From NCBI GenBank assembly GCA_009914755.4, contig CP068257.2:9376001-9440000 (forward strand): 64,000 bases of DNA, given 5' to 3'. Source of the stretch: the human T2T-CHM13v2.0 reference genome, Homo sapiens. The notes beneath the pieces were generated by a model. The model did not search any database. It was given only the letters and a program-made list of their open reading frames with translations, and was not told the DNA's origin. This document shows, piece by piece, positions 34,641 to 47,320 of the stretch; position 1 is the first letter of the stretch; each line of letters opens with the position of its first letter. The position numbers and the translations under genes are program-made.

Positions 34641-36048
34641 CGCATGCGCATTGGCTGAGCCGACTCACGCTCCACTCCTGACAGATAGGCTGCGTCCCCT
34701 TTAAATATCGCCACCGCCACGCGGCGGCCGCGATACTCCTGCTGCCGCCGCGGTAGCGGCTGTGTCCTGGGTCCTGTTTGGGGTGGCATGGGAGAGGGGA
34801 CCGCGGGTGTCTCGTCCTGTCCCAGGCCCAAACCCCCAGGGCTCCTGTCCTCAGGACCTGCTTGAGCCGACTTCCACCAAGGGAGGGGGAGCTTCAGGAC
34901 GCCTGCTGTGTGCTCCGGACTCCCGTTGAGATCCCATTCTGGCCCCCTCCGAGTGACATAGGATGGGCTCACCACATGTGATCAGGCCGGCAGGGCCTCG
35001 CTGCAGCACACAATGACCCCATAGGTCTCAAGGCCTAGTGTCAGAGCAAACTCACTCATCCATCAGCCCTCTGCCTCCCTCCTCCTTTGAAAGAGCAGTG
35101 GCCTGCCCCGCTTGTAAAAGCCCACGGGTTCCGGAAAGCCGAACGCGCTTTACAGGACAACTGCAAAGAGGAACAGAGGCGAAACCCAGGGGAAGACCAT
35201 GTGACCACGCGTGGCACTGGCCAATCCCACAGCAGTTGGTGTTAATGTGTGTCACCGGAGGCATACGGGGCGACGGCGAAATGAAGGGTGGGGTCCAGGG
35301 ATATGCCGGTGGAAGGGGGAAACGGGTGACATTTCCGTCAACGCCAAGGAAAAACAAACAACACCTGGGAACCGTGGGGTAGGGGGGCCTCCTGTGCCTG
35401 ACCCAAGCCACGTTTTCAAATGCCTACCAGAGGAGCAAAGAGGTTTCTGCCAATTTCGCAACACCCCCAATCCTCCACCGACCTGGTAGCCCTGACGCAA
35501 CTTCGGCTGGTACAAACCCACAGAGAGTGGGAAAGAAACACACAGAGAGTGAGAGACAGAGAGAGAAGAGAGAATGGGAGACACACACACAGACACACAC
35601 GCACACACACGCAGAGTCATACAGCAGAGGCATTGAAACACACACACCCAGGCAACCCCTGAGGATCCGGGGTTCTGCTCTGGAGGAGAACGACCCTCGG
35701 GTGAGAGAGCAGCCGAGGGGCACGCAGGCCGACCCGTCCTCGAGATCACGGACGGCGGCACGACTTTTGGTGAGACTCACCCCAACCAACACCGTCCGTG
35801 CAGGCCTGAGGCTGGGATCCCGTGCTGCTTCCCCCGTCTCCGCCTGGGGTTTCATCATCCTGGTCGGCCCTTTGCGACTGCTGTCATCAGGAGAGGTTCC
35901 CTTCGACCCCGTGGAAAGGTGAGGCCGGAGCCTCAGAGCCTGGATACCCAAGCACTGCCACGGAGGGCTCCTGCTCTGCCAAGCCTCGGGGACTAGTGTC
36001 TAAGACAACCGTGGGAACCACTGTGACGGGAGAAACCGCTGGCGCCTA
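34641..36048. repeat. Satellite monomer m25 (1408 bp; variant b')
   Basis: Anchor-to-anchor spacing. Confidence 0.9.
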
Positions 36049-37456
36049 GCGCATGCGCATTGGCTGAGCCGACTCACGCTCCACTCCTGACAGATAGGCT
36101 GCGTCCCCTTTAAATATCGCCACCGCCGCGCGGCGGCCGCGATGCTCCTGCTGCCGCCCCGGCAGCGCCTGTGTCTTGGGTCCTGTTTCAGGCGGCGTGG
36201 GAGAGGGGGCCACGGGTGTCTGGTCCTGTCCCAGGCCCAAACCCCCAGGGCTCCTGTCCTCAGGACCTGCTTGAGCCGACTTCCACCAAGGGAGGGGGAG
36301 CTTCAGGACGCCTGCTGTGTTCTCTGGACTCCCGTTGAGATCCCATTCTGGCCCCCTCCGAATGACATAGGATGGGCTCACCACACGTGGTCAGGCCGGC
36401 AGGGCCTCGCTGCAGCACAAAATGATCCCATAGGTCTCAAGGCCTAGTGTCAGAGCAAATTCACTCATCCATCAGCCCTCTGCCTCCCTCCTCCTTTGAA
36501 AGAGCAGTGGACTACCCCGCTTGTAAAAGCCCAGGGGTTCCGGAAAGCCGACCGTGCTTAAAAGGACAACTGCAAAGAGGAAGAGAGGCGAAATCCAGGG
36601 GGAGACCATGTGACCACGCGTGGCACTGGCCAATCCCACAGCAGTTGGTGTTAACGTGTGACACCGGAGGCAAACGGGGCGACGGCAAAACGAAGGGTGG
36701 CGTCCATGCACGTGCCGGTGGAAGGGGGAAACGGGTGACATTTCCATCAATGCCAAGGAAAATCAAACAACACCTGGGACCCGGAGGGTGTGGGGGACCT
36801 CTGTGCCTGACCCAAGCCACGTTTTCAAATGCCTACCAGAGGAACAAAGATGTTTCTGCCAATTTCCCAACACCCCCAATCCTCCACCGACCTCGTAGCC
36901 CTGAAGCAACTTCGGCTGGCACAAACCCACAAAGAGTGGGAAAGAAACACACAGAGACTGAGAGACAGAGGGAGAAGAGAGAATGGGAGACAAACACACA
37001 GACACACACACACACACGCAGAGTCATACAGCACAGTCATTGAAACACACACCCCCAGGCAACCCCTGAGGCTCCGGGGTTCTGCTCTGGAGGAGAACGA
37101 CCCTCGGGTGAGAGAGCAGCCCAGGGGCACGCAGGCCGACCCGTCCTCGACATCACGGACAGCGGCGCGACTTTTGGCGAGACTCACCCCAACAAACACC
37201 GTCCGTGCAGGCCTGAGGCTAGGATCCCGGGCTGCTTCCCCGGTCTCCACCTGGGGTTTCATCTTCATAGTCGGCCCTTTGCGACTGCTGGCATCAGGAG
37301 AGTTTCCCTTCGAGCCCGTGGAGAGGTGAGACCGGAGCCTCAGAGCCTCGATACCCAAGCTCTGCCACGGAGAGCTCCTGCTCTGCAAAGCCTCGGGGAC
37401 TGGTTTCTAAGACAACCGTGGGAACCACTGTGACCGGAGAAACCGCTGGGGCCTCG
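36049..37456. repeat. Satellite monomer m26 (1408 bp; variant d')
   Basis: Anchor-to-anchor spacing. Confidence 0.9.
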
Positions 37457-44501: not shown

Positions 44502-45911
44502 CGCATGCGCATTGGCTGAGCCGACTCATGCTCCTCCACTCCTGACAGATAGGCTGCGTCCCCTTTAAATATCGCCACCGCCGCGCGGCGGCCGCGATGC
44601 TCCTGCTGCCGCCGCGGCGGCGACTGTGTCCTGGGTCCTGTTTGGGGCGGCATGGGAGAGGGGACCGCGGGTGTCTCGTCCTGTCCCAGGCCCAAACCCC
44701 CAGGGCTCCTGTCCTCAGGACCTGCTTGAGCCGACTTCCACCAAGGGAGGGGGAGCTTCAGGACGCCTGCTGTGTTCTCTGGACTCCCGTTGAGATCCCA
44801 TTCTGGCCCCCTCGGAGTGACATAGGATGGGCTCACCACATGTGGTCAGGCCGGCAGGGCCTCGCTGCAGCACACAATGACCCCAGAGGTCTCAAGGCCT
44901 AGTGTCAGAGCAAATTCACTCATCCATCAGCCCTCTGCCTCCCTCCTCCTTTGAAAGTGCAGTGGCCTGCCGCGCTTGTAAAAGCCCAGTCGTTCCGGAA
45001 AGCCGAACACGCTTTACAGGACAACTGCAAAGAGGAAAAGAGGCGAAACCCAGGGGGAGACCATGTGACCACGCGTGGCACTGGGTAATCCCACAGCAGT
45101 TGGTGTTAATGTGTGTCACCGGAGGCATACGGGGCGACGGCGAAACGAAGGGTGGGGTCCAGGCATGTGCCGGTGGAAGGGGGAAACGGGTGACATTTCC
45201 GTCAGTGCCAAGGAAAATCAAACCACACCTGGGAACCGGGAGGTGGGGGTGCCGACTGTGCCTGACCCAAGCCACGTTTTCAAATGCCTACCAGAGGAGC
45301 AAAGAGGTTTCTGCCAATTTCGCAACACCCCCAATCCTCCACCGACCTCGTAGCCCTGAAGCAACTTCGGCTGGCACAAACCCACAAAGAGTTGGAAAGA
45401 AACACACAGAGACTGAGAGACAGAGGGAGAAGAGAGAATGGGAGACAAACACACAGACACACACACACACACGCAGAGTCATACAGCAGAGGCATTGAAA
45501 CACACACCCCCAGGCAACCCCTGAGGATCCGGGGTTCTGCTCTGGAGGAGAACGACCCTCGGGTGAGAGAGCGGCCCAGGAGCACGCAGGCCGACCAGTC
45601 CTCGAGATCACTGACCGCGGCGCGACTTTTGGCGAGACTCACCCCAACCAACACCGTCCGTGCAGGCCTGAGGCTGGGATCCCGTGCTGCTTCCCCCGTC
45701 TCCACCTGGGGTTTCATCTTCATAGTCGGCCCTTTGCGACTGCTGGCATCAGGAGAGTTTCCCTTCGAGCCCGTGGAGAGGTGAGACCGGAGCCTCAGAG
45801 CCTCGATATCCAAGCACTGCCACGGAGGGCTCCTGCTCTGCAAAGCCTCAGGGACTGGTTTCTAAGACAAACGTGGGAACCACTGTGACCGGAGAAACCG
45901 CTGGGGCCTCA
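44502..45911. repeat. Satellite monomer m32 (1410 bp; variant h)
   Basis: Anchor-to-anchor spacing; offset of +7045 from m27. Confidence 0.9.
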
Positions 45912-47320
45912 CGCATGCGCATTGGCTGAGCCGACTCACGCTCCACTCCTGACAGATAGGCTGCGTCCCCTTTAAATATCGCCACCGCCGCGCGGCGGCC
46001 GCGGTGCTCCTGCTGCCGCCCCGGCGTCGGCTGTGTCCTGGGTCCTGTTTGGGGCGGCGTGGGAGCGCGGGCCGCGGGTGTCTCGTCGTGTCACAGGCCC
46101 AAACCCCCAAGGCTCCTGTCCTCAGGACCTGCTTGAGCCGATTTCCAGCGAGGGAGGGGGAGCTTCAGGACGCCTGCTGTGTGCTCCGGACTCCCGTTGA
46201 GATCCCATTCTGGCCCCCTCCGAGTGACATAGGATGGGCTCACCACATCTGTTCAGGCCGGCAGGGCCTCGCTGCAGCACACAATGACCCCATAGTTCTC
46301 AAGGCCTAGTGTCAGAGAAAATTCACCGATCCATCAGCCCTCTGCCTCCCTCCTCCTTTGAAAGAGCAGTGGCCTGCCCCGCTTGTAAAAGCCCACGGGT
46401 TCCGGAAAGCCAAACGCGCATTACAGGACAACTGCAAAGACGAACAGAGGCGAAACCCAGGGGAAGACCATGTGACCACGCGTGGCACTGGTCAATCCCA
46501 CAGCAGTTGGTGTTAATGTGTGTCACCGGAGGCATACGGGGCGACGGCGAAACGAAGGGTGGGGTCCAGGCATATGCCGGTGGAAGGGGGAAACGGGTGA
46601 CATTTCCGTCAACGCCAAGGAAAAACAAACAACACCTGGGAACCGTGGGGTAGGGGGGCCTCCTGTGCCTGACCCAAGCCACGTTTTCAAATGCCTACCA
46701 GAGGAGCAAAGAGGTTTCTGCCAATTTCGCAACACCCCCAATCCTCCACCGACCTGGTAGCCCTGACGCAACTTCGGCTGGTACAAACCCACAGAGAGTG
46801 GGAAAGAAACACACAGAGAGTGAGAGACAGAGAGAGAAGAGAGAATGGGAGACACACACACAGACACACACGCACACACACGCAGAGTCATACAGCAGAG
46901 GCATTGAAACACACACCCCCAGGCAACCCCTGAGGATCCGGGGTTCTGCTCTGGAGGAGAACGACCCTCGGGTGAGAGAGCAGCCGAGGGGCACGCAGGC
47001 CGACCCGTCCTCGAGATCACGGACGGCGGCACGACTTTTGGTGAGACTCACCCCAACCAACACCGTCCGTGCAGGCCTGAGGCTGGGATCCCGTGCTGCT
47101 TCCCCCGTCTCCGCCTGGGGTTTCATCATCATGGTCGGCCCTTTGCGACTGCTGTCATCAGGAGAGGTTCCCTTCGACCCCGTGGAAAGGTGAGGCCGGA
47201 GCCTCAGAGCCTGGATACCCAAGCACTGCCACGGAGGGCTCCTGCTCTGCCAAGCCTCGGGGACTAGTGTCTAAGACAACCGTGGGAACCACTGTGACGG
47301 GAGAAACCGCTGGCGCCTAG
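45912..47320. repeat. Satellite monomer m33 (1409 bp; variant i)
   Basis: Anchor-to-anchor spacing; offset of +7045 from m28 up to the CA tract. Confidence 0.9.

What the first reader, a model, noticed from the sequence alone, without database searches (positions are those of the whole stretch)
35800..46885. Nested 2,819-bp and 7,045-bp duplications whose identity breakpoints fall in the (GA)n/(CA)n tract
Identity between m26/m28 post-CA segments starts immediately 3' of the CA tract (about 37020 and 39840). The 2,819-bp copies end at the CA tract of m28/m30. The 7,045-bp-offset copies (35.8-39.8 kb vs 42.8-46.9 kb) also stop at the CA tract of m28/m33. Together with the array edge at about 305 lying in the same tract, this points to the internal microsatellite as a preferred unequal-exchange site that generates the higher-order repeats.
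Basis: partly seen in the sequence, partly recalled or inferred. Interest (0 to 1): 0.6.

Follow-up and report, generated by a model that had tools for sequence, protein, structure and literature searches.

The report
Nested duplications in SST1 macrosatellite array
The window is a primate SST1/NBL2 1.4-kb macrosatellite array in which a very recent 2,819-bp tandem duplication did arise by an exchange inside the monomer's (CA)n tract, but this is one event, so the tract is at most a mildly favoured exchange site.

Summary
37018-39826 and 39837-42645 are identical (2,809/2,809 bp). Flanks on the same diagonal are 92-94% identical and both switches are sharp. The junction monomer (m27) has a CA tract that is an exact hybrid of its two parental tract types, which places the exchange at 39811-39826.

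The "7,045-bp duplication" is an older 3-monomer (4,226-bp) duplication. The nested 2,819-bp insertion pushed its copies apart, so its "stop at the CA tract" is that same junction. Its own exchange point lies somewhere in 42346-43168, most parsimoniously 42906-43168, which is 250-512 bp past the tract.

The "array edge at 305" is not an edge. Bases 1-292 are the 3' end of the extra segment found in long-form SST1 units.

Of seven recent duplications resolved here, one maps in the tract, two have intervals that partly overlap it, and four map outside most parsimoniously (the 4,226-bp and 4,227-bp cases cannot firmly exclude it). The likelihood estimate is about 7-fold enrichment, p = 0.06-0.09. 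A sharp linkage-breakdown peak at the tract vanished once the focal junction row was removed.

Verdict: ordinary unequal exchange in a known macrosatellite, with one well-resolved microsatellite junction. The hotspot claim is only weakly supported.

The parts
37018..39836 (.). Copy 1 of the 2-monomer (2,819-bp) tandem duplication (monomers m26-m27, types B and C).
   Evidence: Identical to copy 2 over 2,809 bp. The only difference is one base and the register in the terminal CA run.
39837..42655 (.). Copy 2 of the 2,819-bp tandem duplication (m28-m29).
   Evidence: The length of the matching run equals the offset, as expected for a two-copy tandem duplication.
39811..39826 (.). Resolved exchange interval of the 2,819-bp duplication, inside the (CA)n run of hybrid monomer m27.
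   Evidence: m27 has the C-type state at column 1396 and the A-type state (A, not G) at column 1413. Its (AC)9 run equals the C-type left part plus the A-type right part when the two are anchored at the right. The 75-mer across this junction is unique in the window and absent from 78 related contigs.
39739..39836 (+). Composite GA-rich/(CA)n tract of m27 that carries the junction.
   Evidence: Tract alignment and coordinates.
36922..37017 (+). GA/CA tract of m25 (A-type, AG(AC)8). This is the parental context for the right side of the hybrid.
42558..42655 (+). GA/CA tract of m29 (C-type, with the CGC interruption). This is the unrecombined form of the left parent.
35611..39836 (.). First copy of the older 3-monomer (A-B-C, 4,226-bp) duplication (m25-m27). 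It is now separated from the second copy by the nested 2,819-bp insertion, which gives the 7,045-bp offset.
   Evidence: m25/m30 differ at 3 sites, m26/m31 at 5 and m27/m32 at 2. m26 equals m28, and both differ from m31 at those 5 sites, so the 2-monomer event is the younger one.
42656..46881 (.). Second copy of the 3-monomer duplication (m30-m32).
42346..43168 (.). Robust bounds for the exchange point of the 3-monomer duplication. The most parsimonious sub-interval is 42906-43168 (columns 261-526 of hybrid m30).
   Evidence: m30 follows m33 at columns 37 and 260 and follows m25 at the 18 later diagnostic columns, so 20 of 20 are consistent. The lower bound is weak, because column 37 is hypervariable and the column 260 allele is private to m25. 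The robust lower bound is column 1112 of m29.
1..292 (+). The 3' end of the roughly 1-kb segment specific to long-form SST1 units. It is not unique flank.
   Evidence: 80-94% homologous segments sit between consensus position about 1300 and the GA/CA tract in long-form units on contigs L073, L049, L010, L018 and L019. L051 and L075 are 99.3-99.7% identical to it.
293..387 (+). First GA/CA tract, where homology to the 1.4-kb short-form monomer begins.
   Evidence: BLAST against the consensus: 293-420 aligns to consensus 1311-1440 at 94% identity.

Best explanation
The window is an array of the primate SST1 macrosatellite in its 1.4-kb short form (sf1, also called NBL2). It has been remodelled by a series of out-of-register (unequal) exchanges between monomers.

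In the flagged region the order of events was as follows.
1. The original arrangement was A-B-C-A'.
2. An A-B-C unit of 4,226 bp duplicated. The exchange most likely lay 250-512 bp downstream of the tract, in an A-type monomer.
3. Later, B-C (2,819 bp) in the first copy duplicated. This exchange was resolved inside the (CA)n run. It joined the left part of a C-type tract to the right part of an A-type tract, giving the present A-B-C*-B-C-A-B-C-A'.

The composite GA/CA tract is thus one of several exchange sites in the monomer. It may be a few-fold favoured, but it is not the general generator of the higher-order structure.

Shown here: the product structures, the order of events, and the hybrid junction.
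Inferred: the process. Homologous unequal sister-chromatid or homologue exchange is most likely for the events that fall in long identity blocks. For the B-C event, which used only about 16-24 bp of identity, either that or a short-homology/template-switch route is possible.
For: Identity of the repeat:
- The consensus is 1,407 bp, about 60% G+C, with a NotI site.
- Monomers are 91-100% identical to each other.
- Each unit carries a GA-rich block followed by CA repeats of variable length. This matches the published description of NBL2 (PMC6009586) and the 1,407-bp SST1 unit.
- A PRDM9-type 13-mer is present in 25 of 45 monomers, as reported for sf1 (PMC12657243).
- An invariant 34-mer from the monomer is present in 78 metagenome contigs.

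The 2,819-bp duplication:
- The two copies are identical over 2,809 bp, with sharp switches at both ends.
- The length of the matching run equals the offset.
- m27 is a hybrid, with 102 of 103 diagnostic columns from its head parent and the tract G/A position from its tail parent.
- The junction 75-mer is unique.

Order of events: m26 equals m28, and both differ from m31 at 5 sites.

Other events: three-way hybrid tests give fully consistent patterns. These are 73/73 for the G duplication, 12/12 for F-b, 20/20 for ABC and 11/11 for ADE. An automated mosaic scan finds breakpoints all along the monomer.
Against: - I had no reference SST1 sequence and no reads, so the species, the chromosome and the correctness of the assembly are not verified.
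- The single G-to-A difference in m27's tract lies in a CpG and could be a later mutation. The exchange interval would then widen to 39811-39852, which is still the tract plus 16 bp.
- Two of the events placed outside the tract rest on few markers. ABC rests on hypervariable column 37 and a private allele at column 260. The upper bound for ADE rests on one shared 1-bp deletion in a C4 run.
- Old events cannot be separated into crossover and gene conversion.
Confidence: 0.75

Rival explanations
1. The internal GA/CA microsatellite is the preferred unequal-exchange site, for example because the CA run is prone to Z-DNA and the GA block to H-DNA, and it generates the higher-order repeats of this array.
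For: - The B-C junction is resolved to 16 bp of CA run, despite longer identity blocks elsewhere between the same parents.
- The G and 14-monomer duplication intervals overlap the 5' part of the tract.
- The maximum-likelihood enrichment is about 7-fold.
- Broad weakening of linkage around columns 1350-70 survives removal of the focal junction row.
- Type-level association between flanking blocks is lowest or near lowest there.
- The roughly 1-kb difference between long and short forms also abuts the tract.
- Poly-AC and poly-AG are known to form non-B DNA (PMC5622345).
Against: - Only one event is actually resolved inside the tract.
- Four recent events map outside it.
- The enrichment has p = 0.06-0.09.
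- The sharp four-gamete peak is an artefact of the focal junction row.
- Association dips of similar depth occur near columns 800, 1050-1100 and 520-620.
- The automated scan finds 6 or more breakpoints in the half of the monomer farthest from the tract.
Confidence: 0.3
2. Exchange points are set by ordinary homologous-recombination rules, namely the longest uninterrupted identity and/or PRDM9-directed breaks. On this view the tract location of the B-C junction is coincidental.
For: - The G, ABC, ADE and 14-monomer events each fall in the longest or second-longest identity block between their parents.
- A PRDM9 13-mer sits at about column 221-233 in 25 of 45 monomers. The ABC interval starts 18-30 bp downstream of it.
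- sf1 SST1 is reported to be enriched in PRDM9 motifs (PMC12657243).
Against: - The B-C exchange used a block of at most about 24 bp, while blocks of 136, 92 and 75 bp were available.
- The prior chance of landing in the tract is about 7%, and in that specific block under 2%.
- With a 1.4-kb period, every position lies within 700 bp of a PRDM9 motif, so that model has little discriminating power here.
Confidence: 0.3
3. The tract acts as a barrier rather than an initiator. Length differences between CA runs block heteroduplex extension or branch migration, so exchanges started elsewhere tend to end at the tract.
For: - CA runs differ in length between monomer types, from (AC)8 to (AC)13, with or without a G interruption.
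- The two parental tracts of the B-C event differ by one CA unit and by the G.
- Microsatellite length differences are reported to alter crossover and non-crossover outcomes at a human hotspot (PMC6485458).
Against: This was not tested directly. A barrier would also predict endpoints piling up on both sides of the tract for many events, and that is not seen.
Confidence: 0.15
4. The perfect 2,819-bp repeat is an assembly artefact (a false duplication) within a difficult satellite.
For: There are zero differences over 2.8 kb in a repeat array, and no read data were available to me.
Against: - The junction carries a unique hybrid CA tract that is not a copy of any other junction in the window.
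- A duplication of this size is well within long-read length.
- Other duplications in the same window show the graded divergence expected of real events.
Confidence: 0.05

Closest known systems
SST1 / NBL2 (sf1) macrosatellite arrays of primate acrocentric and pericentromeric regions
   Same: - A 1.4-kb (1,407-bp) G+C-rich unit.
[quoted passage not shown]
- A NotI site.
- A PRDM9 motif in the consensus and a 'central gap' relative to the longer subfamily (PMC12657243).
- A de novo 1,407-bp deletion in a chr13 array shows that unit-register changes are ongoing.
   Different: None of the papers I could search maps intra-array exchange points relative to the GA/CA tract or describes nested multi-monomer duplications. 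Published sf1 identity is about 99% across the acrocentric arrays, whereas monomer types here differ by 3-8%.
Unequal crossing-over that generates higher-order repeats in satellite arrays (alpha satellite), with non-random exchange registers within the monomer (Warburton, Waye and Willard 1993, recalled from memory; cited in papers listed)
   Same: - Out-of-register exchange between diverged monomers.
- Hybrid junction monomers.
- Multi-monomer units copied as blocks.
- The idea of a preferred phase within the monomer.
   Different: - There are only 2-3 copies of each multi-monomer unit here, and they are nested and irregular. This is not a homogenised HOR array.
- The monomer is 1.4 kb and carries a true microsatellite.
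- A preferred register is not demonstrated here.
Duplications bounded by microsatellites, such as the Sp185/333 gene cluster of the purple sea urchin (PMC3091723), and conserved motifs proposed as promoters of satellite array rearrangement in nematodes (PMC3694981)
   Same: The edges of tandem segmental duplications coincide with GA-type microsatellites or short conserved motifs, and these are proposed to promote instability.
   Different: Those cases rest on several coincident edges. Here only one independent junction is resolved to the tract, and there are clear counter-examples in the same array.

Membership tests
SST1/NBL2 (sf1) macrosatellite | Tandem unit of about 1.4 kb (1,407 bp) | tested here: met
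   Anchor spacing is 1,405-1,415 bp and the consensus is 1,407 bp.
SST1/NBL2 (sf1) macrosatellite | Unit begins with a GA-rich block followed by CA repeats of variable length | tested here: met
   Tract alignment of all 45 monomers. The description is from PMC6009586.
SST1/NBL2 (sf1) macrosatellite | G+C-rich and CpG-rich, with an internal NotI site | tested here: met
   59-62% G+C. GCGGCCGC is present in the consensus. The NotI site is mentioned in PMC8582499.
SST1/NBL2 (sf1) macrosatellite | Predicted PRDM9 motif in the monomer consensus, and a central gap relative to long-form units | tested here: met
   CCNCCNTNNCCNC is found at consensus position 220 and in 25 of 45 monomers. Long-form units with about 1 kb of extra sequence just upstream of the tract are on L073, L049 and L010. 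The literature source is.
SST1/NBL2 (sf1) macrosatellite | Sequence identity to a reference SST1 consensus, and a primate acrocentric location | not testable with these tools
   No eukaryotic reference or Dfam/Repbase sequence is available. The only indirect evidence is 78 metagenome contigs, presumed host DNA, that share the 34-mer and are up to 99.7% identical to parts of the window.
Tandem duplication by unequal exchange | Head-to-tail copies, matching run length equal to the offset, and both ends at the same monomer phase | tested here: met
   A run of 2,809-2,848 columns at an offset of 2,819 bp, with both ends in the CA run.
Tandem duplication by unequal exchange | Hybrid junction monomer that carries markers of both parental contexts | tested here: met
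   m27 gives 102 of 103 head-parent markers plus the tail-parent state at column 1413. The junction 75-mer is unique.
Microsatellite-associated exchange hotspot | Excess of independent exchange points in the tract relative to its share of the monomer (7%) | tested here: inconclusive
   Of 7 events, 1 is inside and 2 partly overlap. The estimate is lambda of about 7, with p = 0.06-0.09. In the wider scan, about 6 of about 16 breakpoints lie within 100 bp of the tract against 3.4 expected; that tally is my own, made.
Microsatellite-associated exchange hotspot | Linkage breakdown localised at the tract and independent of the focal event | tested here: inconclusive
   The short-range four-gamete peak (0.53-0.61) drops to 0.12-0.13 without the m27|m28 row. 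A broad residual elevation and a low block association remain, but they are not unique to the tract.
Microsatellite-associated exchange hotspot | Non-B DNA formation or break initiation at the tract in vivo | not testable with these tools
   This needs footprinting or break-mapping data.
Regular higher-order repeat (HOR) array of the alpha-satellite type | The same multi-monomer unit reiterated many times at very high identity | tested here: not met
   Units of 1, 2, 3 and 14 monomers are each present in only 2-3 copies, and they are nested and irregular.

The most novel reading that the evidence does not exclude
The composite GA/CA tract of short-form SST1 monomers is a structure-prone site where short-homology exchanges occur. 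The same site would then be where exchanges within and between chromosomal SST1 arrays are preferentially resolved, including those behind array length change and Robertsonian fusions. That would give a sequence-level explanation separate from the PRDM9 motif emphasised so far.
Probability: 0.12. Interest if true: 0.7.

Novelty: new member of a known kind. Interest (0 to 1): 0.3.

Why it matters
SST1 arrays are the reported breakpoint of common human Robertsonian translocations, and they change length between generations. Knowing where within the 1.4-kb unit exchanges are resolved would constrain the mechanism, whether PRDM9-directed meiotic recombination or non-B-DNA/short-homology events. 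This window gives one clean example of an exchange resolved to a 16-bp interval within a CA run. It also gives a method (three-way hybrid mapping per junction) that could be applied to hundreds of assembled arrays. On its own it does not establish a hotspot.

Tried and rejected
- Tandem Repeats Finder returned nothing because the period exceeds 500 bp. I used k-mer offsets and anchor motifs instead.
- My first guess was bovine satellite I (1.715). Primers recalled from memory gave no match, so I dropped it.
- The four-gamete profiles first looked like strong independent support for a hotspot. Removing the single m27|m28 row abolished the sharp peak, so I do not count it as independent evidence.
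- The haplotype-number lower bound on recombination was negative everywhere and uninformative.
- Type-level clustering gave only a broad, non-unique dip.
- The supplement with NBL2 primers is not held in the library, so no primer-level confirmation was possible.
- Metagenome contigs are short-read assemblies of one or two monomers. I did not use them to infer further junctions, only for identity and for the long-form structure.
- The rough ages assume the human p-arm mutation rate and no gene conversion. I give them only as orders of magnitude.

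
Full report
**What the window is.**
- The whole window is 59-62% G+C.
- The strongest k-mer self-offsets are 1,407/1,409 bp and their multiples, with 19,721 bp the strongest of all.
- An anchor motif just 3' of the CA run occurs 46 times at spacings of 1,405-1,415 bp.
- I aligned 45 monomers (1,429 columns). Pairwise identity is 91-97% between monomer types and 99-100% between recent copies.
- I use "tract" for the composite GA-rich/(CA)n region. It occupies columns 1325-1428, and the pure CA part is columns 1393-1428.

**Identity of the repeat.**
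- The consensus is 1,407 bp. It has a NotI site and a promoter-like invariant 34-mer.
- A 1,407-bp SST1 unit is reported.
- PMC12657243 equates NBL2 with SST1 subfamily 1. It notes a central gap and a PRDM9 motif in that subfamily.
- I find the 13-mer CCNCCNTNNCCNC in 25 of 45 monomers.
- The invariant 34-mer hits 78 metagenome contigs. They are 85-99.7% identical to parts of the window.
- I conclude that this is a primate SST1/NBL2 short-form array. Species and chromosome could not be tested.

**The 2,819-bp duplication.**
- 37018-39826 and 39837-42645 are identical strings of 2,809 bp.
- On the same diagonal the neighbouring monomers differ at about 100 columns. These are m25 against m27 and m28 against m30.
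- In 50-bp bins, identity is 82-96% up to 37,000 and 100% from 37,048. It is 100% up to 39,750 and 90-96% from 39,850.
- The length of the matching run equals the offset, which is what a two-copy tandem duplication predicts. For that reason its two "ends" are one datum, not two.
- The junction monomer m27 follows the C-type parent (m29) at every diagnostic column up to 1396. At column 1413 it carries A, as the A-type parent (m25) does, instead of the C-type G.
- Its run AG(AC)9 is exactly the first 8 nt of the C-type run joined to the last 10 nt of the A-type run.
- The exchange therefore lies at 39811-39826.
- A later CpG transition could produce the same base. It would then have to be the only mutation in 2 x 2.8 kb and fall exactly at the junction. 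Even so, the interval would only widen to 39811-39852.
- The 75-mer across m27|m28 occurs once in the window and in none of the 78 contigs.
- Between the two parental contexts the longest perfect blocks are 136, 92, 75, 71 and 70 bp, all elsewhere in the unit. The block used for the exchange is at most about 24 bp.

**The "7,045-bp duplication".**
- Monomer types in this region read A B C B C A B C A' (m25-m33).
- m25/m30 differ at 3 columns, m26/m31 at 5 and m27/m32 at 2. By contrast m26/m28 differ at none and m27/m29 at 1.
- m26 and m28 share all five differences from m31.
- The history is therefore as follows. An A-B-C unit of 4,226 bp duplicated first. B-C of the first copy duplicated later.
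- The offset-5 diagonal (35861-39826 against 42906-46871) ends at 39,830 because the nested insertion shifts the match to the offset-3 diagonal. From 39837 the sequence matches 44063 onward.
- That stop is the same junction as above.
- The older event's own hybrid is m30. It follows m33 at columns 37 and 260 and follows m25 at 18 later diagnostic columns. This gives 42906-43168 as the most parsimonious interval.
- Column 37 is hypervariable. It has four alleles and differs even between the near-identical m8 and m22. The column 260 allele is private to m25. Only the bounds 42346-43168 are therefore robust, and those bounds still include a tract.
- The left end of the diagonal is gradual.

**The "array edge".**
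- Homology to the short-form consensus starts at 293.
- Contigs L073, L049 and L010 carry longer SST1 units. In them, consensus position about 1300 is followed by roughly 0.7 kb of extra sequence. Next comes a 295-bp homologue of window 1-292 (80-91% identical), then the GA/CA tract and the next unit.
- L051 and L075 match window 1-300 at 99.3-99.7%. L051 shows that this homology continues about 100 bp beyond the window start.
- Position 293 is therefore a boundary between long-form and short-form units, not the end of SST1 sequence.
- The difference between long and short forms does abut the microsatellite, and that is worth noting.

**Other recent events in the window (three-way hybrid tests).**

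| Event | Hybrid monomer | Columns | Window coordinates | Note |
|---|---|---|---|---|
| G duplication (1,407 bp) | m2, and its copy m16 | 1261-1401 | 4448-4588 | |
| 14-monomer duplication (19,721 bp) | m14 | 1240-1352 | 21334-21446 | Copies 1613-13925 and 21334-33646, 9 mismatches in 12,489 columns |
| F-a | m14 | 68-544 | 20166-20638 | |
| F-b | m13 | 145-309 | 18835-18999 | |
| ADE duplication (4,227 bp) | m36 | 600-917 | 51695-52011 | See below |

- For ADE, the lower bound (beyond column 163) rests on a cluster of six sites. The upper bound rests on one shared 1-bp deletion in a C4 run.
- An automated scan on a non-redundant set also finds older mosaic boundaries. They lie near columns 443-448, 521-638, 703-831, 1076-1109 and 1260-1295.

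**Is the tract preferred?**
- I modelled each of the seven recent events as uniform over its interval. The maximum-likelihood enrichment of the tract is about 7-fold, with 2ΔlnL = 2.9-3.6 and p = 0.06-0.09.
- Four-gamete profiles first showed a sharp peak at the tract, 0.53-0.67 against 0.05-0.33 elsewhere.
- Removing the single row that carries the m27|m28 junction reduces that peak to 0.12-0.13. The peak is the focal event seen again.
- A broader elevation remains over columns 1350-70, 0.30-0.39 against 0.03-0.18. This holds for site pairs up to 300 columns apart with every gamete present at least twice.
- Type-level association between flanking blocks is lowest or near lowest there. Dips of similar depth occur near columns 800, 1050-1100 and 520-620.
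- The evidence is compatible with a modest preference for the tract and its surroundings. It does not establish one.

**Mechanism.**
- Shown: the tandem products, their nesting and relative age, and a hybrid junction in the CA run.
- Inferred: the events arose by unequal exchange between misaligned units.
- Most events fall in the longest or second-longest identity block between their parents, which fits homologous recombination.
- The B-C event did not. It is compatible with resolution within the CA run. It is also compatible with a short-homology or template-switch event at a sequence able to form non-B DNA (general background in PMC5622345). A third possibility is arrest of heteroduplex extension at a length difference between the runs (compare PMC6485458).
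- These options cannot be separated with sequence alone.

**Rough ages.** These use the reported p-arm mutation rate of 1.33e-7 per bp per generation and ignore gene conversion. The 3-monomer copies differ at about 0.17%, which is on the order of 6,000 generations. The 2-monomer copies show no differences, which gives an upper bound on the order of 4,000 generations. These figures are order-of-magnitude only and assume a human source.

**Verdict.**
- It is an ordinary product of unequal exchange in a known macrosatellite.
- One junction lies in the embedded microsatellite.
- The hotspot idea remains a testable but weakly supported hypothesis.

Noticed in passing
window 1-292 (and L051, L075, L073, L049, L010): The apparent non-satellite flank is the 3' end of the roughly 1-kb segment specific to long-form (sf2-like) SST1 units. 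The long-form/short-form difference ends within about 50 bp of the GA/CA tract. The long form carries a long (CA)n run upstream of the GA block.
   Followed up: partly
window 1613-13925 vs 21334-33646: This is the largest repeat in the window, a 14-monomer (19,721-bp) offset at 99.93% identity. It runs for only about 8.6 monomers before dropping to about 99%, so it is not a simple two-copy tandem duplication. Its left junction is in m14 at 21334-21446.
   Followed up: partly
window 47035-57517: A 3-monomer (4,227-bp) A-D-E unit is present about 2.7 times. The hybrid monomer m36 places the exchange mid-monomer at 51695-52011. m40 is a D-head/F-tail mosaic that switches near 57,517.
   Followed up: partly
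monomer columns 487-520, e.g. window 866-899: A 34-nt stretch is invariant in all 45 monomers and contains TTTAAATAT. It is preceded by GCGCATGCGC and ATTGGC and followed by a NotI site and an ATG. This looks promoter-like and fits the reported internal promoter activity of NBL2 units (PMC6009586).
   Followed up: no
monomer columns ~221-233, e.g. window 608, 35831, 42876: A PRDM9-type 13-mer (CCCCCGTCTCCAC) is present in 25 of 45 monomers. It is found in types A, C, E and some others, and is absent from types F, G, B and H.
   Followed up: partly
monomer column 37, e.g. window 35648: A single position at the 3' end of a short ACACAC run, where it meets a C-run, carries all four bases across monomers. 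It differs even between copies that are otherwise 99.9% identical (m8 against m22). It is hypermutable and unsafe as a marker.
   Followed up: partly
window ~7475-7482 and ~27196-27203 (columns 52-59 of m5 and m19): An 8-bp insertion (GAGGCTCC) is private to one F-type monomer and its copy in the 14-monomer duplication.
   Followed up: no
monomer columns ~1260-1295 and ~790-830: Several independent mosaic boundaries cluster just upstream of the tract. They are m1|2 at 1260-1295 and m26|27 at 1269-1279, and the G and 14-monomer intervals overlap the same stretch. Others cluster near columns 790-830 (m9, m34/m40). These are possible secondary exchange zones.
   Followed up: partly
L001-L078 (metagenome contigs): Seventy-eight metagenome contigs carry SST1 monomers. 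Many are about 1.4-1.6 kb, which looks like collapsed single units. They are presumably host DNA in host-associated samples.
   Followed up: no
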